NCBI GenBank assembly: GCA_964606485.1
Contig: CAZSGP010000001.1
Span: 97,085-161,084 of the forward strand
Reading direction: 5' to 3'
DNA length: 64,000 nucleotides
Origin: an uncultured Planctomycetia bacterium
GTDB taxonomy: Bacteria; Omnitrophota; Gorgyraeia; 2-02-FULL-51-18
A program made the translations under genes and the position numbers. Numbering within the stretch: position 1 is the first letter of the stretch; each line of letters starts with the position of its first letter. The notes beneath the pieces were generated by a model that was not told the origin of the DNA, made no database searches, and saw only the letters and a program-made list of their open reading frames with translations. This document shows positions 2,477 to 18,192 of the stretch, piece by piece.

Positions 2477-3083
2477 AAAGCTTCTTATCCTCATCATTGC
2501 GCTAGCCCTTGCTGGTGTGTGTTTTTTTTATCTTAAACAACATTCGCTTGAACCCAAAGCTTCGGGCGTAAAACCAGCTGTTCAGATTTCCAGAGCTGAA
2601 GCTCCACAAGATCGTTCCGGAATTGAAATTCCGGATCTTTATTGGGGGATGAATCGAAAAGAGGTGGAGCGTGTTCTTGGCAAAGCGCTCGCTGAAGCCC
2701 CACAAACACGTAAATTCTACTCGCCGCGCAACCCGATCGCGTCCGCCCAAGCCCAGACGTTTCGCATGGAAGGACAAGCTTTTTTAGGCAAAGAATCCGA
2801 TTACGTTTTTTTATTTTTAGGAGACAAACTAGCCGCGTATTATATTTTCATCAAAGGATTTGAGCCGGATGAGCTCGATGACGCGATGCGGAGTTTTTTG
2901 ATTAAAAAATTCGGAGAAACTTACGTGGTTCCTGCTGATCCCGACCAAGAACTTCTCAAAATGATTTGGCAAAAGAAGACATTGACCGTGAATTACTGGG
3001 TTTTTAAGGAAGAATTGACCATGACCCAGAAAGCTTGCGCGGGTTTTGGTGTGATTAACCACCAGATTGAGGAAAGTCTATAA
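2457..3083 (+). CDS. Hypothetical membrane-anchored protein (signal-anchor helix LLILIIALALAGVCFFYL)
   Basis: ORF 2436-3083. The start is uncertain: ATG 2436 or TTG 2457. One N-terminal TM helix, no recognisable catalytic motif. Confidence 0.4.
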   Translation, partial: TTLAGFKKLLILIIALALAGVCFFYLKQHSLEPKASGVKPAVQISRAEAPQDRSGIEIPDLYWGMNRKEVERVLGKALAEAPQTRKFYSPRNPIASAQAQTFRMEGQAFLGKESDYVFLFLGDKLAAYYIFIKGFEPDELDDAMRSFLIKKFGETYVVPADPDQELLKMIWQKKTLTVNYWVFKEELTMTQKACAGFGVINHQIEESL

Positions 3084-3135
3084 TTTTTGCTTAATTTTTA
3101 TTAATCTTTTTACTGGTTTATGCTATATTAACTAC

Positions 3136-6100
3136 ATGCCTAAGTCCGTGCGCCGTTTTTTAGCTTCATTTCTAGTTATAAGCTTGATCGGAGCTTATGC
3201 AGGCCCTTCCGTTTACCCCGCTTCCCGCGCCAAAGAAAAAGTAAACGCCATTTTCAAGCAAGGAAAAGTTTTCTACGATCAAGGGAAATATAAAGAAGCG
3301 TTAGATGTCTGGAATTCCTTGGATGAGGAGCTTCTATCCCAAGAGCCTTCGGTTCAGAAAGTCATTGAATTTTTAAAAGGCAAAATTCCTTCCGATTACG
3401 AGGAGCAAGAAGCGGCTTCCGCGCCAAGCGCCCCGACAGTTTCAAGCGTGACAGTGCCGGTGGAAACCTCTGCAGAAGCAGCGTCGATAGCTCCCATCAA
3501 AACCCCATCCGCCGTTAGCCAGTCCCTGAACGATAGCACTAAAAATTTACAATCTCAGATCTCGCAAGCCAAGGCTCAAAAAGGGCAAAATGCCAAAAAA
3601 TCGGCTGAGGCCGAAGCGGCTCTTCTTGCCGATTTTCAAAAAGGGAAAGATTTGTTCGATCAGGGAAATGGACGCGAAGCGCTGGCTGTTTGGAGAGGGT
3701 TGTTGCCCAAAGTTGCGAATCCCGGAGAGCTCGAGAAGCAGCTTAAAAAAATTGAAAGCTCACTGAATGATTTAGACGCTGCTCGGGCTGAAGCCGCAAA
3801 ATTTTCTGCCGTCGGCGGGCAGAAATTTCAAGCTCCCGGAGGATTTGTGGCCTTGCTTGAAGGCGTGAGCGAAGATCTCGACAATGTGCAGTCTCAGATA
3901 GCGCAAGCCAAGATTCAGAAAGAACAGGATGCCAAGAAATCTGCCGAAGAAGCCCTTGTTGCCGAATTCCAAAAAGGGAAGGTTTTATTTGATAAGGGTA
4001 ACGCGCGGGACGCGTTAGCGATTTGGAAAGCGTTATTGCCTAAAGTAAAAAATTCCGGAGAGCTCGAAAAACAACTCATCAAAATTGAGAGCTCACTCGA
4101 TGATTTAGACGCCGCTCGCGCTGCTTCCGCAAAATTTTCTGCGGCCGGCGGGCAGAAGTTTCAGGCGCCCGGAGGATTTGTAACCCTACTTCAAGGAGTC
4201 AGCGAATACCTCGACAAAGAAGCCCGCGAAGTGGAATGGACACGTTGGAAATCAGACGAAAAAGTTTTGGATCGACAGAAATGGATTAAAGAAAACTACG
4301 AAAAAGCACATGACCTTTTTTCGAGAGAAAAGTACAAAGAAGCAATCGATATGTACGCGCTGATTCTGCCTTATCTCGAGGACGGCGAAAACATTGAGCC
4401 TTTTCTTCAGAGTGTCCGCATGAGTTATCAAAATTTATTGGACGCGCAAAAGGCAAGCGAGCAGATCGAGCAAAACGCGCCTAAAAAATTCAAAGCTCCC
4501 GTTGAACTGGTAACGTACTTGTCCAAAGCCGAAACAGAATTGCAGTCTCAAGCCAAGATTGCGCTTGAGCAGAAGCAAAAACTGGAAAAAGCGGGACTGG
4601 ATCAGCAGGTTTTGATGAACACGAATTTTGAAAAAGGAAAAGCACTTTACGAAAAGGGCAGGATTAAAGAGGCGGTTGCCGCCTGGAGTTCTGTGACGCC
4701 TTATCTTGAAGAAGGGGCTCGCGTCCAGGGGTATTTGGAATCCATTTCTAAAAATTACGAAGCTGCGCGAATTACCGATGAATTTGTGCAGGGGGCGTCG
4801 TTGAAAATTGGTAAGAAGTTTAAAGCACCGGATGGATTCATTCTAAATTTAAAAGAAGCAAGTGAGGCTCTAGAAAAAGAAGCCCAGCAAGCCGCAATGT
4901 TGAAATGGAAAACGCAGAACGAATTGATGGACCAAGAAAAGTGGTTCAAAGAAACGCTGGCGCAAGCCAAGGCCCATTTCGACGAGGGGAGAGTTGAAAA
5001 GGGCCTTGAGACCTCTCGACAGGTGTTGCCTATGCTCGAAGAGTCCGCCCAAATCCAAGCATTCTTAGATGGGATTGCGCTGAGCGAGCAAAATTTACAA
5101 GACGCCAAAAAAACGAGCGCTCAATTTGCGCAGAGCCGCAATAAAAAGTTCAAAGCCCCCGACGCTTTAATCGCGATGCTTTCCGATGCCGATCAGCGCC
5201 TGCAGTTCCAAGCCAAACAAGCCATGACTCAAAAAGCAGTCGTTGATAAAGCAGCACTCGATCAGCAAGTCTGGGTGAACAGCGCTTTTGAAAAGGGCAA
5301 GGCTTTTTACCAGCAGGGCAAAGTTCGAGAAGCGATCTCAGCATGGACGACGATTACGCCTTATTTGGAAGGTGGAACAGATATTCAAAGTTCTCTCGAT
5401 CTCGTTCAGAAAAATTACGAGTCTGCTCAAGCTTCTGCGCAATTGGCAAAGGATGCCGTTTCGCAAAAGGATCAAAAATACAAATCTCCTGCAGAACTAC
5501 CAGTAATCATGGAGCAGATGAACGCAAAGCTTCAGACGGATTTACTGGAATCCAAAGCGCAGAAGGCGCGCACCGAACAAGCCGTTGCTGAAAGACAGAA
5601 GTGGATTCTTTCAACTTTTCAAAAAGGAAAAGACTTTTTCGCGAGCGGACACACCCAAGATGCGATCACCGAATGGGACCGGCTAACTCCTTATTTGGAA
5701 GAGGCGTCTGAAATCCGCGCGTTAATTGAAAAGGCCAAATTATCTTATCAGTCCTTGGTTCTCGCGCAGTCGGAAACGGCTCGCTTTGCGTCTACAGAGT
5801 ATAAATCGTTAAAGGTTCCATACGCCGCAGATATTCAAGCATCTTTAGCTCAGTCCTTGTCGAGTTTGGAAACGCAAACACAAATAGCTCTTGAACAAAA
5901 ATCCCAGCTTGAAAAAACCATTTCAGATCGAAAGGTCTGGATCGATCAAACCTTCTTAAAAGGCAAAGCGTTATACGAAAAAGGCCAGTTCAAGGAAGCG
6001 GCTCAAACGTGGAGTGCGCTCGTGCCGTATTTGGATTCGTCGGCGCAGATCAGAGTGGCCATCGACGCAGTTTTGAATCATGCCGATCAAGCGGTGGTGG

Positions 6101-9100
6101 TTAAAACCCAGGCAGAAGAGGCTATTTCCAAAAAAGATCAGGCCTTTAAAGCGCCCGATGAACTTGCCAAAATGCTGCTTCTAGCCAAGCAGTCGCTTAA
6201 GACAGAGGCGTTTCAGGCGCAGACTCAAAAAGCACAGCTCGATCAAACTTTGTTTGAGCGTCAACAATGGATTAATCAAAATTTCCAAAAAGGAAAAGAT
6301 TTATACGGAAAGCAAAAATACACCGAAGCATTGAGCGCTTGGAAGGAAATTTTGCCATATCTTGAAAATAAGGATGAGGTGAAGTCCTACATCGAGTCCG
6401 TTGAAGCGTCCATTGAAAACGCCAAAGATGCTAAAAATGCGGCCGATCAAGCCCAGTCGAGAGTTCAGAGCAAGGTGAAAGCGCCTCAAGAGCTGATCAA
6501 ATCCCTTAGCGATTTAAGTCAAAAACATAAGCTGGAAATTCAGGAGTCCCTAAGTGCTCGCTCCAAGTTCGAGCAAGATTCCGAGAATCGTGAAAAATTT
6601 GTAACCGATACCTTCCAAAAAGGAAAAGATCTCTACAATCAGGGCTCTTATTTGGAGGCTATCAGCACATGGAAATCCATTTTGCCGTACTTAGAGGAAA
6701 GCTCTCAAGCTCAAGCTTACTTGCAGAGCGTTCAAGCCAGTTTAGAGAATGCCCAGGAAGCTAAGCGCGCGGCCGACGCGGCAAAAATGGAAATCGACCG
6801 GAAATTTCAGGCGCCTGGGGAACTATTGCTTTACTTGAATCAAGCCGGTCAAAAGCTAAGTGAGGAAGCCAAGCTTTCCAATGGGCTTCGCGTCAAGGCC
6901 GAGCAAAACGTTTCTGACCGCCGCGATTGGCTCGTGTCTACTTTCCAAAAAGGCCGTGCATTGGTCGAGCAGGGTAAGGTTCAGGAAGGGTTGCAAGTTT
7001 TTAACCAGCTAATACCTTATCTTAACGAAGAAAAAGAAGTGGCTCAGGCGATCAAGGCGATTGAGAAAAATTACAACGATGCGAGCGCAGCAAAAGCAGC
7101 ATTGACACAGACCCAAGAAAAATCAAACCAGAAATTTAAGGCACCGGCTGAGTTGACCGCTTTGCTGAGCCAGGCGAATTTACGCTTCCAGACAGAAATT
7201 GCAGATGCCCTAAGCCGTAAAAAACAATCCGAAGATTCACTTTCGCAAAAACAGCTTTGGATTTTGACGGCGTTCCAAAAGGGTAAAGAGCTTTATACCC
7301 AGGGTAAGATTGGAGAGGCTGTCGAATCTTGGGGAGAAATGACGCCGTATTTGGATCCTCAGTCCGATGCCCAAAAATTAATCGATCAATCCAAAGAAAG
7401 TCAGAGAGCGGCGCTCGAAGCGCGTCGCTCGGCTGTCGCCGCGGCCGCCAAAGAATACCAAGGTTTTCAGATTCCAGCGGATTTAGTCACTTACTTGGAT
7501 GATGCCGATCAAAAGCTGAGAAACGAAGCCCAGTCACTGAGCGCTCAAAAATTGAGAGCGGACAAAACATTTTTTGATAAGCAGGCTTGGATCAATGCGA
7601 GTTTCGAGAAGGGACTTGCTTTCTATCAGAATGGAAAAATTCCCGAAGCATTGGACGCCTGGGATAATTTAATCCCATACCTTGAATCGGAGCCTTTACT
7701 TAAAAAAGAATTGGTGAGCCTTCGCTCGGAATATGCGGCCATTCTTCAGATTCAAAAAGAGGTTGAAGCGCAGAAGGGCCAGAAATTGCAGGCCCCGGCG
7801 GAATTAAAAATGGCTCTCGCGGACTTTACTGGCCAACTTAAATTAAAAACGCAAGCCTATCAAAATGACAAGTCGGCCCTTGAGAAATCACTGCTCGATC
7901 GTCAGGCCGCCGTCAATGATAGCCTGCAAAAAGCAAAGCAACTTTTTAAGGATGAAAAACCGGCTGAAGCGGTGGCACTTCTAGAGGATATTGTTCCAAA
8001 CTTCGACGCAGATTCAGGCATTGCGGCTCAGGTCGCCGGACTGCGCGCAAGCCAGAAGAATTTATTAGCCGCGCAAGCGGTGGCGCAGCAAGCCTTGCAA
8101 AAGAAAGATCAAAAATTAAAGGCGCCGGACGGATTTTTGAAAGCCATAGCCGGATTTGATCAGGCTCTTCAAAATAAAACGAAAGAGTCCCTGAGCGTTC
8201 AGGCCCAGCTCCAATCTGATATGGCTGACCGTCAAAAATTAGTCGAGATGACATTTCTCAAAGGCCAAACGGCTTTCAATGAAGGTAAAATTCGTGAAGC
8301 GTTAGAGAGTTGGACCTCGCTCACAGCGTATCTTGAAAAAGACTCCGAAGCTGCGGTGATGATTGACCAGGTACAGACACGCTACAAGAATCTTCTGGAT
8401 GCGCAGTTCCAGGCTCAGGCGGCTGCCGTTAAAAAAGATCAAAAATTCCAACTTTCACCGGCTTGGCTCAAGAGCATTGCTAGCGCTCAGTCGGGTCTTG
8501 AAGCTCAAACCAAAGAGGTGATTGGACAGCGTCTCGCCATGGAAAAATCTGTTTCGAACCGCCATGCGTGGATTCAAACAACCTTTGAATCAGGCAATGC
8601 CAACTACCAAAACGGGGATTACGACAAGGCGCTCGCAGAATGGCAGAAGCTGACGCCGTATGTGGATGAGTCATCCGGGTTTGAGGAGTTGCTCGCCCAA
8701 ACAAAAGCGTCGCTAGCCAATTTTCAGGCTGCTAAAACCCAAACAGCAAACTTTGCTTCCACACAGTACAAGTCTCTTAAAGTGCCTTATGCCGGCGAAA
8801 TGAATGCCACGCTAAGCAAGGTGCTGGCCGATTTAGACCGAGAGACGCAAAGCGCCGTCGGACAAAAGGCGCAAATGGAAAAAACACTTTCAGAACGCAA
8901 AGCCTGGGTCGACCAAAATTTCCAAAAAGGAAAAGAGCTTTTCCAGAAAGGCCAGATCAAAGATGCGGCAGTAACTTGGACAGCACTTATCCCTTATTTG
9001 GAATCGGAACAGCAAATCAAAGCGCTCCTGGATGCCCTACTCAAAAATTATGAATTTGCGACGCAGGCGCAGTCTCAAGCCAAGGAAGTGCTCTCCCGCA

Positions 9101-11445
9101 AGGATCAAAAATTAAAAGCTCCGGAAGAGTTGGCAAAGCTTCTAACCGACGGGCGAGAGCTTTTAAAATCACAAGTATTTGACGCACAGAGCCAAAAGGC
9201 CCAAGCTGAACAAGCCGCCGCGGACCGCAGTGAATGGGTGTCGCTTACTTTCCTGAAGGGCCGCGATTTATACAAGCAGCAAAAAATTCAAGAAGCGCTC
9301 GAAACCTGGAAGCAAATCATCCCTTATCTTGAAAATGCCGATCAATTTCAAGGTTTTATTCAGGCCGCCGAAGATAGTTATCGCGCTGCAGAAGAAGCTA
9401 AGAAGTTAGCGGCGGAGTCCGCTTCTCTCCAGGAGTTGAAGCTGAAGAGCCCTCCCGAATTTGTGGTTTCTTTGACCGAAATCAATAACCAGTTGAAATA
9501 TCAACTGTATGACGCAAAAACACGCAAAGATAAAGCTGATAAGTCCCTGCAGGACCGCCAGAGCTTAGTGAGCGCGACCTTCGAAAAGGGTTCGGTGTTA
9601 TTTGCTCAGGAAAAATATTATGAGGCGCTCATTGTTTGGAGGGAATTGCTCCCTTATCTTGATGAGCAAACCAAGCTTCAACCGCTCTTAGACCAGGCGT
9701 TCAAGAATTATCAGGCACAGGTTGAAGCCGCCAATCAGGCTAAAACGGCGGCTGCCCGCCAAGGGATGAAATTTCAGTCCCCTGAGAATTTGGGGCGTTA
9801 TTTAAGCGATATCAGCGAAAACTACGCGAAGCAAACGCAGAGTTTCTTGAAAGAGCGCGAGCAGATGAGCGCCACCGTAGTGGAGCGGCAATCTTGGGTG
9901 AATGACATTTTCCAAAAAGGTAAGAATTTTTATGATGCCGGCCAATACGATCAGGCGGTCTCCCAGTGGAAGCTCATTGTTCCGCTGGTAAATGAAGGGG
10001 ACCAGGTTGCTAAATATATTGAAGTAGTGGATGCCAATCTTCAAAATCTTAAGAGCGCACAAAATTCTTCTCAGAGTGCGGTGGTCGAACGCGATAAGCG
10101 TTTCGCGGTTCCACAGGGACTACCTGAGTTGCTCGGCCAAGCCGCCAAGCATTTGAAAGATGAGGCATTTGAAGCTGAAAATCAACGCGTTAAGGCGGAC
10201 CAAACCTTGAGCGAGAGACAGCTCTTTGTCAAAACGACTTTTGAAAAAGGAAAAACGCTTTACGGGGAAGCTCATTTTGCGGAAGCCATACAGGAATGGG
10301 AAAAGCTGGGTCCTTACTTGGATGAGCAGACCGGAATTCAAAAATTAATCGGAGAGGCTAAGACCAATTATAAAAATGCGATGGATTCTAAACAATTGGC
10401 GGTGGAAGCTTTTGCGAAGGAATACAAGGGTCTCAAGCTTTCTTATACCGATCAGATGATTAAGCTTTTGGAAGAAGCCAACGCCAAACTTTCATCGGAA
10501 TCTGCCCAAAATAAATTAAAAGTAGATGATTTAGAAAAGACATTGGCCGAGCGGCGCGAGTGGGCAGCGAACACCTTTAATAAGGCGAGCGTCTATTACG
10601 ATCAAGGCCGGTACGACGAGGCGATTGAGCAGTGGGAGCGTCTCTTGCCGTACCTCGAAAGCGATTCTCCGATGAAAAAGCAAATTGAGATGATTCGCAC
10701 AAATTTTAACGCGCTTCAAAATGGTTCAAAGAGCGCTGAAACCTTGAACACCAAAAAAGACAAGTGGACAGAAGTTCCGGAGGAATTTAGCCAGTCGCTT
10801 ACGGAAGTCTCAAAGAAATTTGAAGAGAAGGCGCGAGATGCGCAGTCCGGATCCGCAACGCTTGAAAAAGAAATATCAGATCGAAAAGAGTATTTCCGTT
10901 TTGTGTATCAAAAAGGAAAAGATCTGTTTGACCAAGGTAACGATGAAGAAGCTTTGAAGGCTTGGGAGACGCTGATGCCCTATTTAGCAGAAGCTCCCGG
11001 CATTAAAGCACAAATCGAAACGGCTAAAAATTCCCTGAAGGATCTTAAGGCGGCTCGAAAACTTCAAGAGCAAATTGATGCCAAGAAAAAATCATTGTTG
11101 CCTTTACCGCCCGTAGAAGTTCAAGCTCAAGCCCAGCCTGTTCAAAGTGAGGCTCCTGCTCCAGCAGAAGACCCTGCAGAGCCGGCTAAGCCCGAGGCAG
11201 CTAGTGGCGCCAAAACCGAATTTGTTTCGGGAGAAATTGTGGATGTGGACTCTGAGAAACAATTTATAACCATTAAGCTTTATACCGTCGGTGACAAGAA
11301 AACGCTTGAACTTCATTTTGACCAAAATACTCTTGTTAAGGGCGATGAAAAAGGAAAGTCCATCGGTTCTCTTCAAGCGGGAACCGCGGTTGATCTGCGA
11401 TATGATCCCGACTCCAAACAAGCGGTTACCGTTTACGTCTACTAA
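3136..11445 (+). CDS. Giant secreted alpha-helical tandem-repeat protein. About 24 TPR-like repeats of ~115-140 aa, plus a C-terminal ~90-aa beta-rich domain.
   Basis: Uninterrupted ORF 3067-11445. The preferred start is ATG 3136 (MPKSVRRFLASFLVISLIGAYA, signal peptide). The unit is repeated: FQKGKDLYxxGxYxEAxxxWxxLxPYLExxxxxxxYIxxxxxNYxxAxxAxxxAxxxxxxKFKAPxELxxxL. The C-terminus (…FVSGEIVDVDSEKQFITIKLYTVGDKKTLELHF…VTVYVY) differs from the repeats. Confidence 0.8.
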   Translation: MPKSVRRFLASFLVISLIGAYAGPSVYPASRAKEKVNAIFKQGKVFYDQGKYKEALDVWNSLDEELLSQEPSVQKVIEFLKGKIPSDYEEQEAASAPSAPTVSSVTVPVETSAEAASIAPIKTPSAVSQSLNDSTKNLQSQISQAKAQKGQNAKKSAEAEAALLADFQKGKDLFDQGNGREALAVWRGLLPKVANPGELEKQLKKIESSLNDLDAARAEAAKFSAVGGQKFQAPGGFVALLEGVSEDLDNVQSQIAQAKIQKEQDAKKSAEEALVAEFQKGKVLFDKGNARDALAIWKALLPKVKNSGELEKQLIKIESSLDDLDAARAASAKFSAAGGQKFQAPGGFVTLLQGVSEYLDKEAREVEWTRWKSDEKVLDRQKWIKENYEKAHDLFSREKYKEAIDMYALILPYLEDGENIEPFLQSVRMSYQNLLDAQKASEQIEQNAPKKFKAPVELVTYLSKAETELQSQAKIALEQKQKLEKAGLDQQVLMNTNFEKGKALYEKGRIKEAVAAWSSVTPYLEEGARVQGYLESISKNYEAARITDEFVQGASLKIGKKFKAPDGFILNLKEASEALEKEAQQAAMLKWKTQNELMDQEKWFKETLAQAKAHFDEGRVEKGLETSRQVLPMLEESAQIQAFLDGIALSEQNLQDAKKTSAQFAQSRNKKFKAPDALIAMLSDADQRLQFQAKQAMTQKAVVDKAALDQQVWVNSAFEKGKAFYQQGKVREAISAWTTITPYLEGGTDIQSSLDLVQKNYESAQASAQLAKDAVSQKDQKYKSPAELPVIMEQMNAKLQTDLLESKAQKARTEQAVAERQKWILSTFQKGKDFFASGHTQDAITEWDRLTPYLEEASEIRALIEKAKLSYQSLVLAQSETARFASTEYKSLKVPYAADIQASLAQSLSSLETQTQIALEQKSQLEKTISDRKVWIDQTFLKGKALYEKGQFKEAAQTWSALVPYLDSSAQIRVAIDAVLNHADQAVVVKTQAEEAISKKDQAFKAPDELAKMLLLAKQSLKTEAFQAQTQKAQLDQTLFERQQWINQNFQKGKDLYGKQKYTEALSAWKEILPYLENKDEVKSYIESVEASIENAKDAKNAADQAQSRVQSKVKAPQELIKSLSDLSQKHKLEIQESLSARSKFEQDSENREKFVTDTFQKGKDLYNQGSYLEAISTWKSILPYLEESSQAQAYLQSVQASLENAQEAKRAADAAKMEIDRKFQAPGELLLYLNQAGQKLSEEAKLSNGLRVKAEQNVSDRRDWLVSTFQKGRALVEQGKVQEGLQVFNQLIPYLNEEKEVAQAIKAIEKNYNDASAAKAALTQTQEKSNQKFKAPAELTALLSQANLRFQTEIADALSRKKQSEDSLSQKQLWILTAFQKGKELYTQGKIGEAVESWGEMTPYLDPQSDAQKLIDQSKESQRAALEARRSAVAAAAKEYQGFQIPADLVTYLDDADQKLRNEAQSLSAQKLRADKTFFDKQAWINASFEKGLAFYQNGKIPEALDAWDNLIPYLESEPLLKKELVSLRSEYAAILQIQKEVEAQKGQKLQAPAELKMALADFTGQLKLKTQAYQNDKSALEKSLLDRQAAVNDSLQKAKQLFKDEKPAEAVALLEDIVPNFDADSGIAAQVAGLRASQKNLLAAQAVAQQALQKKDQKLKAPDGFLKAIAGFDQALQNKTKESLSVQAQLQSDMADRQKLVEMTFLKGQTAFNEGKIREALESWTSLTAYLEKDSEAAVMIDQVQTRYKNLLDAQFQAQAAAVKKDQKFQLSPAWLKSIASAQSGLEAQTKEVIGQRLAMEKSVSNRHAWIQTTFESGNANYQNGDYDKALAEWQKLTPYVDESSGFEELLAQTKASLANFQAAKTQTANFASTQYKSLKVPYAGEMNATLSKVLADLDRETQSAVGQKAQMEKTLSERKAWVDQNFQKGKELFQKGQIKDAAVTWTALIPYLESEQQIKALLDALLKNYEFATQAQSQAKEVLSRKDQKLKAPEELAKLLTDGRELLKSQVFDAQSQKAQAEQAAADRSEWVSLTFLKGRDLYKQQKIQEALETWKQIIPYLENADQFQGFIQAAEDSYRAAEEAKKLAAESASLQELKLKSPPEFVVSLTEINNQLKYQLYDAKTRKDKADKSLQDRQSLVSATFEKGSVLFAQEKYYEALIVWRELLPYLDEQTKLQPLLDQAFKNYQAQVEAANQAKTAAARQGMKFQSPENLGRYLSDISENYAKQTQSFLKEREQMSATVVERQSWVNDIFQKGKNFYDAGQYDQAVSQWKLIVPLVNEGDQVAKYIEVVDANLQNLKSAQNSSQSAVVERDKRFAVPQGLPELLGQAAKHLKDEAFEAENQRVKADQTLSERQLFVKTTFEKGKTLYGEAHFAEAIQEWEKLGPYLDEQTGIQKLIGEAKTNYKNAMDSKQLAVEAFAKEYKGLKLSYTDQMIKLLEEANAKLSSESAQNKLKVDDLEKTLAERREWAANTFNKASVYYDQGRYDEAIEQWERLLPYLESDSPMKKQIEMIRTNFNALQNGSKSAETLNTKKDKWTEVPEEFSQSLTEVSKKFEEKARDAQSGSATLEKEISDRKEYFRFVYQKGKDLFDQGNDEEALKAWETLMPYLAEAPGIKAQIETAKNSLKDLKAARKLQEQIDAKKKSLLPLPPVEVQAQAQPVQSEAPAPAEDPAEPAKPEAASGAKTEFVSGEIVDVDSEKQFITIKLYTVGDKKTLELHFDQNTLVKGDEKGKSIGSLQAGTAVDLRYDPDSKQAVTVYVY
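3541..4224 (+). repeat. Recent tandem duplication (2 x ~342 bp, ~80% nt identity) at the start of the repeat array
   Basis: Protein copies LQSQISQAKAQKGQNAKKSAEAEAALLADFQKGKDLFDQGNGREALAVW... and VQSQIAQAKIQKEQDAKKSAEEALVAEFQKGKVLFDKGNARDALAIW... are nearly identical over ~114 aa. Confidence 0.7.
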
Positions 11446-12355
11446 AACGCCTTCCCTGTTTTTATTTGTTCTTCTTTCGGCACTTTGTTTAGCCGCAAGT
11501 CCCGTTGATTATTTGCAACAAGCCAATGAGGCACTCGAGCGAAAGGATCTGTTACGCGCTGATTTTTACATGACGCGTTATTTGGCGAAGGGAGCTGTTA
11601 AGGAAGATGACGCCCGGGAGTTTATCAAAAGAAGGCGCTTGGACCCGGGAACCTTTTTTCCATCGGGCTATGATTCCGAATTTATCCAGTGGTTTACGGA
11701 GAGCACCTATAAGCAATGGGCTGTGGGGGATGATAAAATCAAAGAAAAGGTTCGCTCCTTTGAAATTGCAACGGGTCGCAAAGAGAACTATTTTGTCACC
11801 ATGACCGCAACACCGGCGCTTCAAACCTGGTTTCAAAGCGGACCGCCGCTCAAGACTTTGCTTTTGGCCATGGCGACCCACAAACCGGCCGTGGCGATTT
11901 ACGCCGGTAAGCTTCTTCAAGATAAGCCAGCTATCCTATTTCCGATTGTTAGAATCGATGCAGGGAGGCATTTCGTGCATCATGTATGGACACCTGAGTT
12001 TTTGGACCTGGACGGGGACCGGGTGCCTGAAATCTGGATCAGGTATAATTTAACGGGTGCCGAGGGATTCGAACAGGTGCTTGAGGTGTATAAAATTCAA
12101 GAGGACTCTAATCTAGAGCTTCTAGGGCGTTTTAAGGGTTCTTATGACGGGGTCGCACGACGTCTCGACGGAGGAAGCACGATTGAAACATTGACGGGTG
12201 AGGGCAGTAAGCCTAGCCTGCCTCGTGCGATGTTCGACCAATATGAAGTTCGGCATTATCAATTTCAAAACGGCGAATTTGAAGAGAAAACCATGGGAAC
12301 CGTATCGCATATTTTAAGGAGCAAAGAATGGAAAAAATACTACCTTCCGTCATAG
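11402..12355 (+). CDS. Hypothetical secreted protein
   Basis: ORF 11291-12355 overlaps the giant gene. The likely start is ATG 11402, giving MIPTPNKRLPFTSTKTPSLFLFVLLSALCLAASPV, a signal peptide with a long n-region. No recognisable catalytic motifs. Confidence 0.45.
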   Translation: MIPTPNKRLPFTSTKTPSLFLFVLLSALCLAASPVDYLQQANEALERKDLLRADFYMTRYLAKGAVKEDDAREFIKRRRLDPGTFFPSGYDSEFIQWFTESTYKQWAVGDDKIKEKVRSFEIATGRKENYFVTMTATPALQTWFQSGPPLKTLLLAMATHKPAVAIYAGKLLQDKPAILFPIVRIDAGRHFVHHVWTPEFLDLDGDRVPEIWIRYNLTGAEGFEQVLEVYKIQEDSNLELLGRFKGSYDGVARRLDGGSTIETLTGEGSKPSLPRAMFDQYEVRHYQFQNGEFEEKTMGTVSHILRSKEWKKYYLPS

Positions 12356-12640: not shown

Positions 12641-14521
12641 GTGGGGAAAGTTCCGGTTTTTATTTTTCAGGTTTTGGTGCTGTTGGCTTTTATGATATTG
12701 GTTGTGCGGGTGTTATACGGCGATGGTTCGAATAGCCCTTTGTTCGGCGCTATCAGGCGAATTTTTGTGCCTTGGATTTTATTTAATACCTTCCTGCTTT
12801 ATGCGGGACTTCAAGCTATTTTAGGCCCCCTGATCTTTCAAGGGCTTCCCGGGTCAATCGCTCCTTTCAGGTCGTTTCATTATGTAATACAACTTTTCTG
12901 TTATGAGGTTTTATTTTTTTTGATTCTCGATTTATTGTCCGATTTGCGCCGTCTCACGTGGATAAGTTTTTTCTTGGGTTTTCAAGTCGTTTTTTTAATT
13001 GCACTTGGATTCTACCAAAGTTTTGCGGAGCTTCAGCCTATCCGGAAGTTTTACAATTTTTTTGAACCCACCAATGTGCAGATTTTATTTTCGTCATTTT
13101 CCAATGCCAATCATTACGGGGCATATATTTTTTTGGCGAGCCTATTATTTCTAGCCTATTTTTTGTGCTACTGGAAAAATTTCAAAGTCCCATTTGAATG
13201 GGATGTTGACGCGGTTTTGGCTCTAATTTTTGGAATTATTTTCATTTTGACGGGGTGGTCTATCCGGGCCGCAGGGGCTCGAGCCGTTTTTATGACTTAT
13301 GTTTTTACGTTAATCGCAGCGCCTTATTTTGTTTTTAAGCACTTTGAGAAAAGGATTTGGTTTCTCATTTCAATCGTAGCCATCTTAGTGCTATCGCTAC
13401 TCTCTCTTAGCATCCGACCAACTTACATTTATGAGAAATGGTCGACTCTAGGGGACGCCGTCATACTGCGTTTTTCGATTTACCGTGAAATGATTGGTAT
13501 TTTTTTAAATTTTCCTCTTTTTGGAGTTGGGTTGGGTACATGTAAATATATTTCGAGTTTGTTTCAGATCGACATGGTTTCTAATTTTACCTGGGCCCAT
13601 CTTTTTAGCCACCATTTGGAGCTTGCATCCGAAACAGGTATTGTTGGTTACGGGTTGTTTATGGGAAGTCTGGGTTGGATTGGCATTCTAAGCTTAAAAA
13701 ATATTCTCACTCGCGTTCATGGGGAGCGCAAAGTTTATGGATTTATCGGTTTTTGGGCTCTAGGTATGATGTTTGCTCTTTCTTTTATTGATGAATATCT
13801 TCTGACGCCTGCAACGGCGATTCTAGTTGTGTTTTTTTTGGCGGTGCTGATCCGATGCGCTTTTGATCTTGAGGTGACCGAATTTGATTGGAAGCCAGCG
13901 CTTCACCCGTTCCTGAGGAATGCCGCTTTTAAGATGCTGATGCTGCTATTTACACTAACCCTAAGCAGTTGGTTTTTGTTGAGTAGTGCGAAAGAGGGTA
14001 TGGCGGGCGTTTTAATGTCACCTACCGAGAGAAATATCGAGATCTTAAAGAAGGGTGTGCATTTTTCCCCTAACAATGCCGAGTATCTACTGCTTTTGGG
14101 GGATGCTTGTTATCGCAAAGACGGCCAAAATTATCTATCAGCGTACGAAAAGGCAGTCCGTAGCGCGCCGACCTGGGCTCGCGCTTGGCTTTTGATGGGC
14201 CGGGCCAAACTATCCTCGGGGATTATAGAAGAGGGTCTAGATAATTTGGAGACAGCCGCCAATTTAATGCCTTATAACCGGGACTCCTATTTGTATTTGA
14301 TTCTCACGTATCTGCGCTTGGAAAATCACGTTCAGTCACATACCCAGAAAAAATATTATCATCAAAAGGCTCTTTCATGGTTGATCGCGTCGAATAGTCT
14401 CGAAAGACCCTTTACGCATAAGGATTGGGGATACGTAACGATGCATGTTTCAACCGGATCGATGCCGGCTGAGGATAAGAGCCGGATCCTGAAGCTGCTG
14501 GACGAAGTGGGCGCGTTATAG
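12641..14521 (+). CDS. Wzy_C-domain polytopic membrane protein (O-antigen ligase/polymerase family) with a C-terminal TPR region
   Basis: More than 10 predicted TM helices. Family motif region NFPLFGVGLGTCKY...WAHLFSHHLELASETGIVGYGLF (H...E...G..G). C-terminal TPR-like repeats (YLLLLGDACYRKDGQNYLSAYEKAV...WLLMGRA). Confidence 0.65.
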   Translation: MGKVPVFIFQVLVLLAFMILVVRVLYGDGSNSPLFGAIRRIFVPWILFNTFLLYAGLQAILGPLIFQGLPGSIAPFRSFHYVIQLFCYEVLFFLILDLLSDLRRLTWISFFLGFQVVFLIALGFYQSFAELQPIRKFYNFFEPTNVQILFSSFSNANHYGAYIFLASLLFLAYFLCYWKNFKVPFEWDVDAVLALIFGIIFILTGWSIRAAGARAVFMTYVFTLIAAPYFVFKHFEKRIWFLISIVAILVLSLLSLSIRPTYIYEKWSTLGDAVILRFSIYREMIGIFLNFPLFGVGLGTCKYISSLFQIDMVSNFTWAHLFSHHLELASETGIVGYGLFMGSLGWIGILSLKNILTRVHGERKVYGFIGFWALGMMFALSFIDEYLLTPATAILVVFFLAVLIRCAFDLEVTEFDWKPALHPFLRNAAFKMLMLLFTLTLSSWFLLSSAKEGMAGVLMSPTERNIEILKKGVHFSPNNAEYLLLLGDACYRKDGQNYLSAYEKAVRSAPTWARAWLLMGRAKLSSGIIEEGLDNLETAANLMPYNRDSYLYLILTYLRLENHVQSHTQKKYYHQKALSWLIASNSLERPFTHKDWGYVTMHVSTGSMPAEDKSRILKLLDEVGAL

Positions 14522-14529
14522 TCATTCGG

Positions 14530-15243
14530 ATGAGACCTTCTAGTGTTTCGGTTGTTTTGCCAACGCTTAATGAATCTGAGGGAATTTTAAAATTAATTGA
14601 GTCTATCAAAACCAATCTTGGAGCATCGCTTCTAGAAATCGTGATTGTGGACGATGATAGTCCTGACCGTACATGGGAAGTGATTGAGCGTTTGGGGGAC
14701 CCCATCTGCAAAGTCATTCGCCGAATCGGGTGTCGCGGTTTAGCTTCGGCTATCGCGCAAGGCGCGGAGAGTTCGCTCGGGGAAGTGATCCTAATTTCGG
14801 ACGCTGATTTTGGAATCTCCCCAAGCGTCATGCCTAGACTTGTTCAAGCATTAGAGCGGTGCGACATTGCGGTGGGTTCACGCTACGTGGAGTCCGGCTC
14901 GGACGAGCGACCTTGGCTAAGAGCGATGTTGAGTCGCGTTTTTAATGCGGTTGCATCTCTGATGTTGGACCGACGATTTCATGACTATACGTCTGGATTT
15001 GTGGCGTTTCGCAGGAGAGTGCTCGAGAAAGCGCCGATTGGCCCTGAGGGTTACGGGGATTATTTTATGGATTGGATCGTGCGCGCCTTAAAAAATGGGT
15101 ACGTCGTTTGCGAGGTTGGGTACGCTTACGGTCTTCGCACGCACGGGGTTTCTAAGACCGATTCGAGCCTCGTGTCGTTTTTAAAAATATGTTTCCAATA
15201 TATTCGCAGGCTATTTAAAATTAAATTTAGCTACTCAACTTAA
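14530..15243 (+). CDS. GT2-family glycosyltransferase (polyprenyl-phosphate/dolichyl-phosphate sugar transferase-like)
   Basis: VSVVLPTLNE...IVIVDDDSPDRT...DADF matches the GT2 DxD architecture. Size ~237 aa. Confidence 0.8.
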   Translation: MRPSSVSVVLPTLNESEGILKLIESIKTNLGASLLEIVIVDDDSPDRTWEVIERLGDPICKVIRRIGCRGLASAIAQGAESSLGEVILISDADFGISPSVMPRLVQALERCDIAVGSRYVESGSDERPWLRAMLSRVFNAVASLMLDRRFHDYTSGFVAFRRRVLEKAPIGPEGYGDYFMDWIVRALKNGYVVCEVGYAYGLRTHGVSKTDSSLVSFLKICFQYIRRLFKIKFSYST

Positions 15244-15254
15244 AGAAGGAAGAA

Positions 15255-16490
15255 TTGCTGTCTATCACCGAAAGAAAAACTTGCAGAGTCTGCGGATTTG
15301 AACCGTTAGACTTTTTATACTCTCTGGGAAATCTGTTTGTTTCTGGATTTGTTTATCCTGGTGAATCGGGTATGCGGGCACCTCTCGATCTTGTGCACTG
15401 CGGGCGCTGCTCTCTCGTCCAGCTAAAACACACCGCCCCTCAGGAACTTTTGTATGCGCGCTTTTATTGGTACCGTTCGGGCGTTACGGAAACCATGCGA
15501 AAAGCTTTGCGGGATATCACGCAAAATATTGAAACTAAAATCCATCTTGAAGCCGGCGATGTTGTTTTGGATATCGGTTCCAACGACGGAACGCTTTTGA
15601 GAACCTATGAAAATAAAAAATTAATCACCGTGGGCGTTGAGCCTGCATCCAATTTGGCTGAGGAGGGGCGAAAGGGCTTAAGCTTTTTTTTGGGAGATTT
15701 TTGGAATATTGAATCCTATTTAAAATCCGTTCCCAAAAAAGCCGCTGTGATTACGGCTATCGGTATGTTTTACGATATGGAAGATCCCAATCAGTTTATT
15801 CGCGATGCCGCCTCAGCGCTGGATGACAACGGACTTTTTGTGGTGCAAATGATGTGTTTGAAAAATATGCTTGATTTAAATGATCTCGGAAATATTTGTC
15901 ATGAGCATCTTGAATTTTATTCCTTGGAGGCCATAAAGTTTTTGTTTGAAAAAAACGGCCTTATTTTTTTAGACATCGAATACAATAACGTAAATGGCGG
16001 GAGTTACCGCATCACCTCAGCGCTCAAGAGTGGTCCAAGGAGACCGACTCCTGTGGAAAGAGAAAGAATTGAGCGATTCCTGAGGGATGAGGCGCCATTA
16101 ACCACTCGACAGGCTCATTTGGATTTTTTCTCGAGAGCGGAAGCAAACAAAGCCAAGTGTGTCGAGTTTATTCGTTCGGAAGTGGCTCGGGGAAAGACAG
16201 TTTGGGTCTATGGAGCCTCAACCAAGGGGAACACCATTTTGCAGTATTACGGGCTTGATCGGAGCTTGATTGCGGGGGCGTCAGAGCGCAGTCCGGAGAA
16301 GTGGGGGAAGGTGACGGTTGGGACCGAGATCCCTATTTTCCCCGAAGAAGAAGCGCGACGGGCAAAACCGGATTATTTTTTGGTTCTTCCTTACGCTTTT
16401 ATAAACGAATTTTATGAACGCGAAAAAAAATGGAGAGAGGGCGGAGGCAGATTCATCGTTCCTTTGCCGGAATTTAGAGTGCTCGAATGA
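15255..16490 (+). CDS. TylCIII/NovU-like sugar C-methyltransferase family protein, copy 1 (N-terminal Zn-ribbon plus SAM MTase)
   Basis: N-terminal CRVCG...CGRC. Class I SAM MTase motif VLDIGSNDGTLL. C-terminal C-methyltransferase-like domain. Paralog of the 56562-57824 gene. Confidence 0.65.
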   Translation: MLSITERKTCRVCGFEPLDFLYSLGNLFVSGFVYPGESGMRAPLDLVHCGRCSLVQLKHTAPQELLYARFYWYRSGVTETMRKALRDITQNIETKIHLEAGDVVLDIGSNDGTLLRTYENKKLITVGVEPASNLAEEGRKGLSFFLGDFWNIESYLKSVPKKAAVITAIGMFYDMEDPNQFIRDAASALDDNGLFVVQMMCLKNMLDLNDLGNICHEHLEFYSLEAIKFLFEKNGLIFLDIEYNNVNGGSYRITSALKSGPRRPTPVERERIERFLRDEAPLTTRQAHLDFFSRAEANKAKCVEFIRSEVARGKTVWVYGASTKGNTILQYYGLDRSLIAGASERSPEKWGKVTVGTEIPIFPEEEARRAKPDYFLVLPYAFINEFYEREKKWREGGGRFIVPLPEFRVLE

Positions 16491-17455
16491 AAAAGAAAGC
16501 ATTGGTTTTAGGGGTGACGGGCCAGGACGGAAGCTATTTGGCGGAGCTTTTGTTGGAAAAAGGGTATGAGGTTCATGGTCTCATTCGCCGCTCAGCCACG
16601 GGCAATACCAAAAATATTGATGCTTTTATAAACCGCATACAGGTCGAGTCGGGCGACTTGGCGGACAGCGGGTCGCTTTACCGCATCATTCAATCGGTGC
16701 GACCCAATGAAATTTACAACGAAGCCGATCAAGATCATGCAGGTTGGAGCTATCACGCGCCGGACTATTCATCCGACATTACCGGAGCGGCCCCAGGCCG
16801 AATTCTTGAAATCATCCGACAGACGGATAAGAATATAAAATTTTTCCAGCCGCTTACCTCTAATATGTTTGGGCAGGCTTCTGGGCCCTCCCAAAACGAA
16901 GAGACCCCGCTTAACCCCCAGAGTCCGTATGCTTGCGCGAAGGTTTACGCGTGGATGTTGTGCCGGTATTATCGTCAGGTCCACGGACTTTATGCGTCGT
17001 GCGCCATTTTTTTTAATCACGAGTCGCCGCGTCGGCACGAAAGCTACGTGACGCGTAAAATTACAAAGACGGCCCTTCGCATTGCGGAGGGATTGGAAAA
17101 GCAGCTCACGCTCGGGGATATCGACATTCCGATTGATTTCGGCTACGCACCGGAATACATGGAGGCGGCGTTTAAGATTTTACAGTTGGATGCGCCAAAT
17201 GATTTTATAATTGGAACCGGAAAGACACATACGGTGCGTGAATTTTTAGAAGAAACCTTTCGTCAGCTTGGGCTCGATTCTAAAAAATACGTCCAGTTTG
17301 ACCCTAAGTTTGTGAGGCCCGGAAAAACCAGCGCGCTCGTAGCTGATATTTCAAAGGCAAAGAAAATATTTGGGTTTGAGCCTAAAACGGATTTTAATGA
17401 AATTGTGCGCTTAATGGTTGAGAGTGAAAAACATCAAATCCCAAAAAAGGCCTAG
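16487..17455 (+). CDS. GDP-mannose 4,6-dehydratase-like SDR (divergent Gmd paralog)
   Basis: [34 protein letters not shown] and NHESPRRHESYVTRKI match Gmd. The region that is [12 protein letters not shown] in canonical Gmd reads NEADQDHAGWSY here. Confidence 0.7.
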   Translation: MKKKALVLGVTGQDGSYLAELLLEKGYEVHGLIRRSATGNTKNIDAFINRIQVESGDLADSGSLYRIIQSVRPNEIYNEADQDHAGWSYHAPDYSSDITGAAPGRILEIIRQTDKNIKFFQPLTSNMFGQASGPSQNEETPLNPQSPYACAKVYAWMLCRYYRQVHGLYASCAIFFNHESPRRHESYVTRKITKTALRIAEGLEKQLTLGDIDIPIDFGYAPEYMEAAFKILQLDAPNDFIIGTGKTHTVREFLEETFRQLGLDSKKYVQFDPKFVRPGKTSALVADISKAKKIFGFEPKTDFNEIVRLMVESEKHQIPKKA

Positions 17456-18191
17456 TCATTGGATTGAAGCGATTGAAGCGGATCAAGCGTATCGCGAGAT
17501 TTCCGTTTCTGATCTGCAACGACTGGTGAGCCAGGCAAAAAAGCGTTACCAGTTTTATCGTACTCTTAAAAGATATGTGCAGGCTGGCGATTGCGCCCTC
17601 GAAGTCGGGTGCGGTTGGGCTATTTCTAGTTTTGCTTTGGCGGAGGACGGGGCTTTGGTGATGGCGATGGATCTTTCTCCGAGACTCATTGAAAATTTGC
17701 GCAAAGTACAGGCCGAGTGGGGAGCGCCATACAGTGAAGTGATGAATTTTGAGTGTGCCGATATTCGCTCGCTTTCCAAGGCGGATAAACGTTTCGATGT
17801 GGTGTTTAGCGACGGGCTTTACGAGCATTTTTTAGATCCAGCAGAGAGAAGCGCAATGCTGAATAATTGCCGCACCCTCCTCAAAAGTCAGGGGAAGCTA
17901 TTAATCGCAGTGCCGAATTTAAAAAATCCATTTTTTGGAGGAGTTGTGAGTTCCAAGATGCCGGATATGGCATGCCTGAGTGTTGAGGATTTAAGGAGTG
18001 AGCTTCGAAGTGCTGGTTTTCAAATTCTCGAGACCGGATACTCTTTTGTAAACCCTGGATTTAGCCAGTGGCTTCAAGGAGCTTGGATGAAGCCTTTTGT
18101 GAAGGGCGCAGATTTTTTATACGAATTTATTCCAATGAATTTAAAGAGGATTGTAGCGGCGCATATTTATTGTGTCGCACAAAAAAAATAA
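17418..18191 (+). CDS. Class I SAM-dependent methyltransferase
   Basis: Motif I LEVGCGWAIS. Post-I acidic residue in MAMDLS. FSDGLYEHF motif. Confidence 0.65.
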   Translation: MRVKNIKSQKRPSHWIEAIEADQAYREISVSDLQRLVSQAKKRYQFYRTLKRYVQAGDCALEVGCGWAISSFALAEDGALVMAMDLSPRLIENLRKVQAEWGAPYSEVMNFECADIRSLSKADKRFDVVFSDGLYEHFLDPAERSAMLNNCRTLLKSQGKLLIAVPNLKNPFFGGVVSSKMPDMACLSVEDLRSELRSAGFQILETGYSFVNPGFSQWLQGAWMKPFVKGADFLYEFIPMNLKRIVAAHIYCVAQKK

Positions 18192-18192
18192 C

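What the first reader, a model, noticed from the sequence alone, without database searches (positions are those of the whole stretch)
3136..11445. 2792-aa secreted protein made of ~24 tandem 115-140-aa helical repeats with a strictly conserved FQKGK...W..L.PYLE core
Each repeat has one TPR-like helix-turn-helix (F-Q-K-G-K-x-L-[FY]-x-x-G-x-[YI]-x-E-A-[IL]-x-x-W-x-x-[IL]-x-P-Y-L-[ED]) followed by an ~80-aa predicted helical arm. The arm ends in a K/Q-K-F-K-A-P-x-E-L motif.

The first two units are a recent ~80%-identical tandem duplication. A distinct ~90-aa beta-rich C-terminal domain, after a Pro/Ala/Glu-rich linker, ends the protein.

The regular ~405-420-bp periodicity over 7.5 kb is conspicuous. 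I do not recognise this repeat as a described family. It could be a periplasmic or cell-surface scaffold or spacer protein.
Basis: seen in the sequence. Interest (0 to 1): 0.55.

Follow-up and report, generated by a model that had tools for sequence, protein, structure and literature searches.

The report
Giant 110-residue helical-repeat secreted protein
This intact gene encodes a 300-kDa exported protein made of 24 strictly 110-residue helical modules, always followed by the same small partner gene; the pair belongs to a rare, unnamed family seen only in Omnitrophota-type groundwater bacteria and most likely forms a long structural tether in the cell envelope.

Summary
The ORF is real and intact: ATG 3136 to stop 11445, 2769 aa. 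The same protein is called in two public assemblies. It has a Sec signal peptide, 24 homologous units, a Pro/Ala/Glu linker and a 77-aa beta domain.

Units are 110 aa (330 bp), not 115-140 aa (405-420 bp). 101 of 165 unit intervals in eight family proteins are exactly 110.

Each unit holds one TPR-like hairpin, a 30-residue helix and a roughly 40-residue helix that runs into the next unit. This rests on an AlphaFold model (pLDDT 75) and residue covariation.

No Pfam, NCBIfam or PDB entry covers the unit beyond the single TPR motif. The family is tiny: 59 clusters at E<=1e-30 among 1.84 billion. Named records are Omnitrophota or PVC-group MAGs.

New here: a 317-aa secreted partner gene (11402-12355) follows the giant gene in all 13 loci that reach its 3' end, often overlapping it. 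It models as a helical domain plus a beta-propeller-like domain.

The terminal units and the tail domain are positional orthologues, and the middle units vary from 18 to 28. I read it as a length-setting envelope tether anchored through the tail-partner pair. Location and function are untested.

The parts
3055..3084 (+). Promoter-like site (TTAACC, 18-nt spacer, TATAAT), about 50 nt upstream of the ATG
   Evidence: Best match of the region at 10 of 12, but the total number of sites is no higher than in shuffles. Weak evidence.
3136..11445 (+). Giant gene: 2769 aa plus stop. Mature protein about 306 kDa, pI 5.5, no cysteine.
   Evidence: ORF list and translation. Exact protein present in NCBI and Logan assemblies. 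Composition.
3136..3225 (+). Sec-type signal peptide (MPKSVRRFLASFLVISLIGAYA, possible cleavage after AYA or YPA). No lipobox.
   Evidence: Basic n-region and a 12-residue hydrophobic core (mean KD 2.5). The same layout is present in nine of the ten other family proteins examined; P0007 begins later. There is no other hydrophobic segment. Cleavage site inferred by eye.
3253..3384 (+). Unit 1: an isolated TPR-like 'head' with a short capping helix (SVQKVIEFLKGK), conserved in homologues
   Evidence: Sequences.
3385..3585 (+). Low-complexity Pro/Ala/Ser/Thr/Glu linker between the head and the repeat array
   Evidence: Read directly. Homologues have an equivalent linker of variable length.
3634..11085 (+). 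Units 2-24 of the 110-aa helical repeat (unit 24 lacks the last helix)
   Evidence: Unit coordinates. Independent half-profile test. AlphaFold secondary structure. Covariation.
3610..4217 (+). The only DNA-level tandem duplication (units 2-3): period 333 bp, 1.8 copies, 78% matches
   Evidence: Tandem Repeats Finder. The two units are 64% identical at protein level.
11086..11211 (+). Pro/Ala/Glu-rich linker
11212..11442 (+). 77-aa C-terminal beta domain ending YVY, probably a small OB/CusF/DUF5666-like barrel without metal ligands
   Evidence: 11 invariant residues across 12 proteins. DUF5666 in 6 of 12 members, best E 1e-4; CusF_Ec in 3 of 12. SilF E 0.19. No structure was predicted for it.
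11402..12355 (+). Conserved partner gene: 317 aa, signal peptide, helical N-domain plus beta-propeller-like domain with a DLDGDxxPEIWxRYN motif. It overlaps the giant gene by 44 nt.
   Evidence: Present directly downstream in every related locus that reaches the 3' end. AlphaFold pLDDT 77.7, pTM 0.78. Foldseek best matches are beta-propellers.

Best explanation
The gene and its partner encode a two-protein envelope structure. The steps below are marked as shown or inferred.

1. The giant protein is exported by Sec and released from its signal peptide as a soluble chain (inferred from sequence).
2. It folds into a chain of 24 four-helix modules. Each module is a TPR hairpin (helices A and B), a 30-residue helix H3 and a long helix H4. 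H3 and the first half of H4 form an antiparallel hairpin arm. The middle of H4 packs back on the module's own TPR. H4 then continues without a break as helix A of the next module (shown at model and covariation level).
3. Because a helix is shared between neighbours, the array is a semi-rigid fibre or ribbon. With four helices per module the exit helix runs antiparallel to the entry helix, so I expect a zigzag ribbon of roughly 25-100 nm (inferred; not measured).
4. Flexible Pro/Ala-rich linkers at both ends carry a small N-terminal TPR head and a C-terminal OB-like beta barrel.
5. The barrel docks on the co-translated beta-propeller-like partner, which anchors or caps the fibre (inferred from gene pairing only).
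6. The ends carry the specific contacts. The middle modules act as a length-setting spacer whose number (18-28) differs between lineages.

Whether the fibre sits in the periplasm or on the cell surface is not resolved.
For: Export:
- Signal peptide and no other hydrophobic segment in all full-length members.
- No cysteine in the mature part of any of 8 proteins.

Module structure:
- Per unit, AlphaFold gives a 51-residue helix crossing the unit boundary, a 10-residue helix, a 30-residue helix and a low-confidence loop.
- Covariation on 408 units gives TPR pairs 4-20 and 21-41.
- H3-H4 pairs have i+j of about 124-133: 38-86, 45-88, 46-83, 52-80, 56-71. That is the pattern of an antiparallel hairpin.
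- Further pairs are 26-85, 20-110 and 23-108 and 10-88.

Length constraint:
- 101 of 165 unit intervals are exactly 110 aa and 23 are 112, although units share only 27% identity.

Special ends, variable middle:
- Units 22-24 and the tail are one-to-one orthologues in all homologues (39-44% identity against 26-32% overall). Middle units have no clear one-to-one match, and unit number ranges from 18 to 28.
- The positions most conserved across units are mainly hydrophobic or Gly/Pro core-type residues.

Partner:
- It lies directly downstream in the window and in L001, L002, L004, L005, L007-L012 and L014/L015.
- The genes overlap by 44 nt in the window and L002 and by 4 nt in L005 and L007.
- Both families are about equally rare: 7 and 8 clusters among 5.8 billion.

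Context:
- In the window the pair sits in a cell-surface polysaccharide region.
- In other loci it sits next to pilus or type II secretion assembly genes.
Against: - There is no experimental datum of any kind.
- No recognised anchoring domain is present: no lipobox, transmembrane segment, peptidoglycan-binding domain or outer-membrane barrel.
- The AlphaFold model has only moderate confidence (pLDDT 74.9, pTM 0.35). Its alignment was built from paralogous units, and I had no coordinates, so the overall shape and length are my inference.
- The tail-partner interaction is inferred from synteny alone.
- The tail domain fold rests on sub-threshold profile matches.
- Genomic context differs between loci (ammonium transporter, sugar ABC importer, pilus genes, O-antigen genes), so it gives no consistent functional pointer.
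Confidence: 0.45

Rival explanations
1. Multivalent docking platform. Each TPR-containing unit binds one copy of a client, for example pilins, secretin subunits or other parts of a type IV pilus or type II secretion machine. The protein would then organise assembly rather than act as a passive spacer.
For: - TPR motifs are classical protein-binding modules, and TPR accessory proteins are common in pilus and secretin systems (general knowledge).
- PilM/N, PilO and a GspB-like gene lie directly upstream of the giant gene in L004, L007 and L010.
- In L005 an AAA_22 ATPase gene (which I liken to GspA), a T2SSC-domain gene, a secretin gene and a TPR gene follow the partner.
- A weak local fold match to FimV TPR3 was found.
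Against: - One isolated TPR per 110 aa cannot form the usual multi-TPR binding groove.
- The positions conserved across units are mainly core-type residues (F1, G4, Y8, G11, A16, W20, L23, P25, I37, P68, L75, L82, W106), apart from K3 and R103. The rest of the surface differs between units, which share 27% identity.
- Pilus or secretion genes are absent next to the gene in the window and in most other loci.
Confidence: 0.2
2. Extracellular fibrillar adhesin. The rod crosses the outer membrane (for example through the type II-like system proposed for Omnitrophota giant proteins) and projects from the cell. The N-terminal head, or the partner, would then contact a host or prey cell.
For: - Published proposals link large secreted Omnitrophota proteins to adhesion. 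They note type II secretion-like and carbohydrate-import loci nearby (bioRxiv 10.1101/2023.11.21.568195).
- The same two kinds of neighbours recur here: secretion or pilus genes in L004, L005, L007 and L010, and a sugar ABC importer plus GH2 in L002, L009 and L012.
- The window locus lies among O-antigen, exopolysaccharide and two-partner-secretion genes.
- The composition is acidic and rich in Ala, Lys, Gln and Glu, and lacks cysteine.
Against: - No adhesin-type domain (Ig-like, lectin, dockerin, cadherin) was found in the giant protein or the partner.
- There is no detectable outer-membrane targeting or anchoring signal.
- The secretion-gene neighbourhood is seen in only a minority of loci.
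Confidence: 0.2
3. Not a functional gene: an assembly artefact or a decaying repeat ORF.
For: - In L014/L015 the family gene is split into two ORFs.
- In L009 the reading frame changes inside the gene.
Against: - The window gene is an intact 8.3-kb ORF, and the identical protein is called in two assemblies.
- Units have diverged to 27% identity yet keep their exact length and core residues.
- Homologues at 26-32% identity keep the full architecture and the partner gene.
Confidence: 0.02

Closest known systems
Tetratricopeptide repeat (TPR) proteins, including single-TPR domains such as Tom20 and TPR3 of FimV
   Same: The first roughly 28 residues of each unit match TPR profiles (TPR_2 80 bits and TPR_11 78 bits summed). 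They superpose locally on the single TPR of Tom20 (probability 0.97-0.98, rmsd 2.2-2.8 A over 51-53 columns) and more weakly on FimV TPR3.
   Different: Only one TPR occurs per 110 aa. Each is separated from the next by 76 residues of other helices, so there is no contiguous TPR superhelix or groove. Helix B is short and ends in a family-specific P-Y-L-E. No whole-model match to any TPR structure was found (best E 0.5).
Spectrin repeats and bacterial spectrin-like rods (e.g. EzrA)
   Same: The unit length is similar (about 106 against 110 aa). Both are all-helical tandem modules, and a single helix runs from one module into the next. In both, length is presumably set by repeat number.
   Different: There is no sequence or fold match. 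Each module has four helices, not three, so the chain should zigzag rather than advance about 5 nm per repeat. The protein is exported rather than cytoplasmic.
Giant rod-like helical-bundle surface proteins of Gram-positive bacteria (e.g. the Staphylococcus aureus Ebh repeat region)
   Same: Both are very large secreted proteins built from tens of helical modules of roughly 110-126 aa, thought to form a long fibre (general knowledge).
   Different: The repeat family is unrelated and the phylum and envelope type differ. There is no wall-anchoring or membrane-spanning end. This family has a dedicated partner gene.
Periplasmic spacers and TPR scaffolds (Braun lipoprotein Lpp; BcsC, AlgK and PgaA TPR domains)
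   Same: They are exported helical proteins whose length or superhelix spans part of the envelope (general knowledge). The window locus lies among polysaccharide export genes.
   Different: No lipid anchor, no outer-membrane barrel and no contiguous TPR array are present. The protein is about 10-50 times larger than Lpp.
Omnitrophota giant proteins ('Archaeovorins' and other very long proteins)
   Same: The phylum is the same, the proteins are signal-peptide-bearing repeat proteins, and type II secretion-like and sugar-import genes are sometimes nearby.
   Different: This protein is much shorter (2-3.2 kaa). It has no dockerin, TSP3 or enzyme domains. The two Omnitrophota papers I searched by keyword mention no 110-aa TPR-type repeat or beta-propeller partner.

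Membership tests
TPR superfamily (Pfam TPR_1, TPR_2, TPR_11) | A 34-residue helix A-turn-helix B motif that matches the TPR profile | tested here: met
   TPR_2 scores 80.4 bits (cut-off 27) and TPR_11 77.6 bits for the whole protein. Individual stretches cover only profile positions 5-28 of 34. Local Foldseek matches hit the single TPR of Tom20.
TPR superfamily (Pfam TPR_1, TPR_2, TPR_11) | Three or more motifs directly adjacent, forming a continuous superhelix | tested here: not met
   There is one motif per 110 aa, with a 30-residue and a roughly 40-residue helix between motifs.
Spectrin repeat | A three-helix bundle of about 106 aa that matches the spectrin profile or fold | tested here: not met
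   No spectrin family appears in Pfam at E<=1. No spectrin is among the 50 best PDB matches. Each unit has four helices.
Spectrin repeat | A continuous helix shared by consecutive repeats | tested here: met
   AlphaFold DSSP shows helices 5-55, 115-165 and 227-275, each crossing a unit boundary. Model confidence is moderate.
Trimeric autotransporter adhesins | A C-terminal YadA-type membrane anchor | tested here: not met
   No YadA_anchor match at E<=10 in any of 12 tail domains. The invariant residues are polar or charged, as in a soluble barrel.
DUF5666 / CusF-like OB barrel (tail domain) | Profile match to PF18914 or PF11604 | tested here: inconclusive
   DUF5666 is matched by 6 of 12 members (best E 1e-4) and CusF_Ec by 3 of 12 (best 0.0096). 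SilF in the PDB scores E 0.19. No structure model was made.
DUF5666 / CusF-like OB barrel (tail domain) | The CusF/SilF metal ligands (His and Met-x-Met; ligand identity from general knowledge) | tested here: not met
   In the SilF alignment, His (ISHEA) faces K-l-Y and M-T-M faces l-t-v. No invariant His or Met occurs in the domain.
FG-GAP / beta-propeller (partner protein) | A closed beta-propeller with FG-GAP blades | tested here: inconclusive
   No Pfam family at E<=1. One DxDxDG-type loop is conserved. The AlphaFold model has about 180 aa of beta strands, and its best PDB matches are propellers at TM only 0.2-0.33.
Omnitrophota giant proteins with a type II secretion-like neighbourhood | An adjacent multi-gene secretion locus; dockerin, TSP3 or enzyme domains | tested here: not met
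   No such domains are present. Pilus or secretion genes are adjacent only in L004, L005, L007 and L010, not in the window.

The most novel reading that the evidence does not exclude
The giant protein and its beta-propeller partner form a previously unrecognised envelope fibre system specific to the ultra-small Omnitrophota. It would be a length-tunable tether built from a new four-helix, TPR-derived module. The tether would either set the spacing of the envelope layers or hold the cell to its host. Unit number (18-28) would act as a molecular ruler.
Probability: 0.25. Interest if true: 0.65.

Novelty: new variant of a known kind. Interest (0 to 1): 0.4.

Why it matters
Omnitrophota are widespread, uncultured, very small bacteria thought to depend on other cells, and almost nothing is known about their envelope architecture.

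A conserved two-gene module encoding a 300-kDa protein of exact periodicity gives a concrete target for cryo-electron tomography, metaproteomics and heterologous expression. It also adds a new way of building long fibres from TPR-type hairpins: one hairpin per module, with helices shared between neighbouring modules.

If it is only a structural filler, it still deserves its own family model. At present these proteins are annotated merely as weak TPR hits.

Tried and rejected
- A first alignment of overlapping four-unit stretches was staggered by MAFFT (1001 columns; depth 87 down to 7). I replaced it with non-overlapping three-unit stretches.
- The word-indexed search with the partner alone found only 2 proteins. 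Repeating it with an alignment found 8.
- Distant hits of the exhaustive search turned out to be ordinary TPR proteins with other periods, not relatives of the 110-aa module. P0060 and P0063 have 55-aa TPR units plus kinase and ankyrin domains. P0066, P0069, P0091 and P0139 have irregularly spaced single TPRs.
- In the double-unit covariation the pair 57-103 suggested parallel packing of H3 and H4. I discount it as a probable subtype signal from the 112-aa 'EYKGLKLPY' units. The larger single-unit analysis supports an antiparallel hairpin.
- I considered and dropped the following:
  - a trimeric-autotransporter anchor, because the tail domains show no YadA anchor match;
  - a C-terminal secretion-sorting (T9SS-type) domain, which did not appear among the Pfam matches of the tail domains;
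  - a copper- or silver-binding CusF role, because the ligands are absent;
  - a lipoprotein, because there is no lipobox.
- The organism of the window itself could not be named. Its genome is not among the species representatives scanned. The Omnitrophota assignment rests on where the relatives are found.
- Literature searches found no description of this repeat.
Full report
**The observation**

A single + strand ORF runs to the stop at 11443-11445. Exactly the 2769-aa protein is on record from an NCBI genome (546-kb contig) and from an independent Logan assembly of run SRR12487046. The reading frame is therefore not an artefact of this window. The best sigma-70-like site of the region lies at 3055-3084, inside the longer ORF and about 50 nt before the ATG (weak evidence).

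The core motif occurs 24 times. The spacing is 110 aa for 18 intervals, 112 for three, and 111, 107 and 127 once each. The period is therefore 330 bp, not 405-420 bp. A profile built from units 4-12 alone recovers units 13-24 full length at E 1e-17 to 1e-35, with no hit in 20 shuffles.

Units are old. Mean pairwise identity is 27%. Tandem Repeats Finder sees only one DNA-level repeat, at 3610-4217 (period 333, 78% matches). That repeat is units 2 and 3 (64% protein identity), not units 1 and 2.

**Architecture**

- **Signal peptide.** The N-terminus is a classical signal peptide without a lipobox. Every full-length relative has one, and there is no other hydrophobic segment.
- **Head.** Unit 1 is a short TPR-like head with a conserved capping helix (consensus roughly VI-x-F/Y-L-K).
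- **First linker.** A Pro/Ala/Ser-rich linker of about 65 residues follows the head.
- **Array.** Units 2-24 follow the linker.
- **Second linker and tail.** A Pro/Ala/Glu linker of about 40 residues leads to a 77-aa beta domain ending in V-Y-V-Y; most relatives end Y-I-Y-V-Y.
- **Bulk properties.** The mature protein is about 306 kDa with pI 5.5. Like its seven closest relatives it contains no cysteine after the signal peptide.

**The module**

Pfam recognises only the first two-thirds of a TPR motif once per unit. NCBIfam has no model.

I built an alignment of 41 non-overlapping three-unit stretches from eight family proteins. AlphaFold gave mean pLDDT 74.9 and pTM 0.35. Per unit it predicts:
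- a 51-residue helix that crosses the unit boundary;
- a 10-residue helix;
- a 30-residue helix;
- a low-confidence loop of about 10 residues at K-F-K-A-P.

Mean-field covariation on 408 non-redundant units agrees and adds topology:
- TPR pairs 4-20 and 21-41 are the strongest.
- H3-H4 pairs have i+j of about 124-133 (38-86, 45-88, 46-83, 52-80, 56-71), the signature of an antiparallel hairpin.
- Pairs 26-85 and 10-88 place the middle of H4 against the module's own TPR.
- Pairs 20-110 and 23-108 place helix B against the end of the preceding H4.

Each module is thus a four-helix unit joined to the next by a shared helix. Because the helix count is even, I infer a zigzag ribbon rather than a straight spectrin-like rod. 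I estimate a total length of roughly 25-100 nm. This estimate is inference, because I had no coordinates.

Foldseek against the PDB found no whole-model match (best E 0.5). It found only local single-TPR matches to Tom20 and, weakly, to FimV TPR3.

**The family**

The word-indexed search of 5.8 billion proteins returned seven relatives (2060-3202 aa, 26-32% identity, none named), all with the same layout.

The exhaustive HMMER search of 1.84 billion cluster representatives with the three-unit profile gave 59 hits at E<=1e-30, many of them fragments. Below these come ordinary TPR proteins with other periods.

Across the eight full proteins, 101 of 165 unit intervals are exactly 110 aa and 23 are 112. 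Unit number ranges from 18 to 28.

The last three units and the tail domain are one-to-one orthologues in all relatives (39-44% identity). Middle units have no clear counterpart.

The species-level genome scan found the family in seven MAGs. They are labelled Candidatus Omnitrophota or 'uncultured Planctomycetia', both in or near the PVC group. The ENA record for P0001 is a groundwater metagenome, and a contig carrying P0003 comes from the same run; one Omnitrophota MAG is from groundwater by its isolate name. The window's own genome was not among the representatives, so its phylum is inferred.

**The partner**

Directly downstream of the giant gene, every locus that reaches its 3' end carries a homologous gene of about 320 aa. 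These loci are the window, L001, L002, L004, L005, L007-L012 and L014/L015. L003 and L006 are other assemblies of the L002 and window loci.

- The partner overlaps the giant gene by 44 nt in the window and in L002, and by 4 nt in L005 and L007. This suggests translational coupling.
- It has a signal peptide, no Pfam or NCBIfam match, and an invariant D-x-D-x-D...E-x-W-x-R-x-N loop.
- It is as rare as the giant protein: 8 clusters.
- AlphaFold (pLDDT 77.7, pTM 0.78) gives four to five N-terminal helices followed by about 180 residues of beta strands.
- Its best PDB matches are beta-propellers (XusB, DDB1), at low TM of 0.2-0.33.

**The tail domain**

Twelve tail domains share 11 invariant, mostly polar residues. 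They give sub-threshold matches to DUF5666 (6 of 12 members, best E 1e-4), to CusF (3 of 12) and to SilF in the PDB (E 0.19). This fits a small OB-type barrel. The CusF/SilF metal ligands are replaced. No YadA-type anchor or other sorting domain was detected.

**Context**

Only the partner is universal. Other neighbours vary:
- **Window:** the pair lies between base-excision-repair, phosphoribosyltransferase and cupin genes and a large O-antigen/exopolysaccharide region. That region also holds a two-partner secretion pair.
- **L004, L007, L010:** PilM/N, PilO and a GspB-like gene lie directly upstream in what looks like one operon.
- **L005:** MerR, an AAA_22 ATPase (which I liken to GspA), a T2SSC-domain protein, a secretin and a TPR protein follow the partner.
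- **L002, L009, L012:** a sugar ABC importer and a GH2 glycosidase follow.
- **L001, L004, L011 (and probably L008 and L010):** an ammonium transporter follows, with P-II annotated in L001 and L004. For L008 and L010 this is judged only from the similar C-terminal sequence of the downstream ORF.

A preprint on Omnitrophota giant genes reports type II secretion-like and carbohydrate-import loci near much larger proteins. Keyword searches inside that paper and a 2026 survey turned up no mention of this repeat.

**Interpretation**

The evidence fits an exported, elongated structural protein. Its ends carry specific contacts and its middle is a spacer of fixed module length and variable module number. 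It would be anchored or capped through the tail-partner pair. I give this 0.45.

A multivalent docking platform for a pilus or secretin machine (0.2) and a surface adhesin (0.2) are not excluded. An artefact is excluded for practical purposes.

By sequence the protein is a divergent branch of the TPR superfamily. By architecture it resembles spectrin-like and Ebh-like rods without being related to them. I rate it a new variant of a known kind, of moderate interest.

Noticed in passing
window 19793-22215 and 22333-38724: A two-partner secretion pair. The TpsB transporter (POTRA_2 plus ShlB) carries an unusual N-terminal transglutaminase-like domain (PF13471, the family of lasso-peptide B2 proteases). 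It is preceded by a 97-aa PqqD-like ORF. The TpsA partner is 5463 aa, with a TPS domain and a PATR repeat.
   Followed up: partly
window 39804-45262: A gene set typical of lasso-peptide or RiPP maturation lies right after the TpsA gene. It comprises a 2OG-Fe(II) oxygenase fused to PqqD, a DOT1/PCMT-like methyltransferase, an asparagine-synthase-like enzyme, an HPr-kinase-C-like protein and an NTP_transf_5 nucleotidyltransferase. No precursor peptide was looked for.
   Followed up: no
window 12641-19759 and 45222-63955: A large surface-polysaccharide region. It contains a Wzy_C-type ligase or polymerase, GT2, C-methyltransferases, DegT aminotransferases and GDP-mannose dehydratase-type enzymes. 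It also holds a Wza-like exporter, a Wzc-like co-polymerase/kinase, an ABC-2 exporter pair and a NusG-like regulator.
   Followed up: partly
L014 2-6970 (same in L015): In this relative the family gene appears as two consecutive ORFs of 1158 and 1154 aa, in two assemblies, still followed by the partner gene. It may be a real split or a shared sequencing error.
   Followed up: no
L009 1498-11254: The giant gene changes reading frame near 8762-9270, giving two overlapping long ORFs. This is a frameshift or an assembly error. L012 contains a masked stretch inside the gene.
   Followed up: no
window 11402-11445; L002 18348-18391: The same 44-nt out-of-frame overlap between the end of the giant gene and the start of the partner gene occurs in two relatives that share only about 28% (giant) and 34% (partner) identity. 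This stretch is therefore conserved in two reading frames.
   Followed up: partly
window units 8-9 (aa 828-1049) and units 17-18 (aa 1817-2038): Units 8 and 17 (45% identity) and units 9 and 18 (47%) are markedly more alike than the 27% average. This points to an old segmental duplication of a multi-unit block nine units apart.
   Followed up: no
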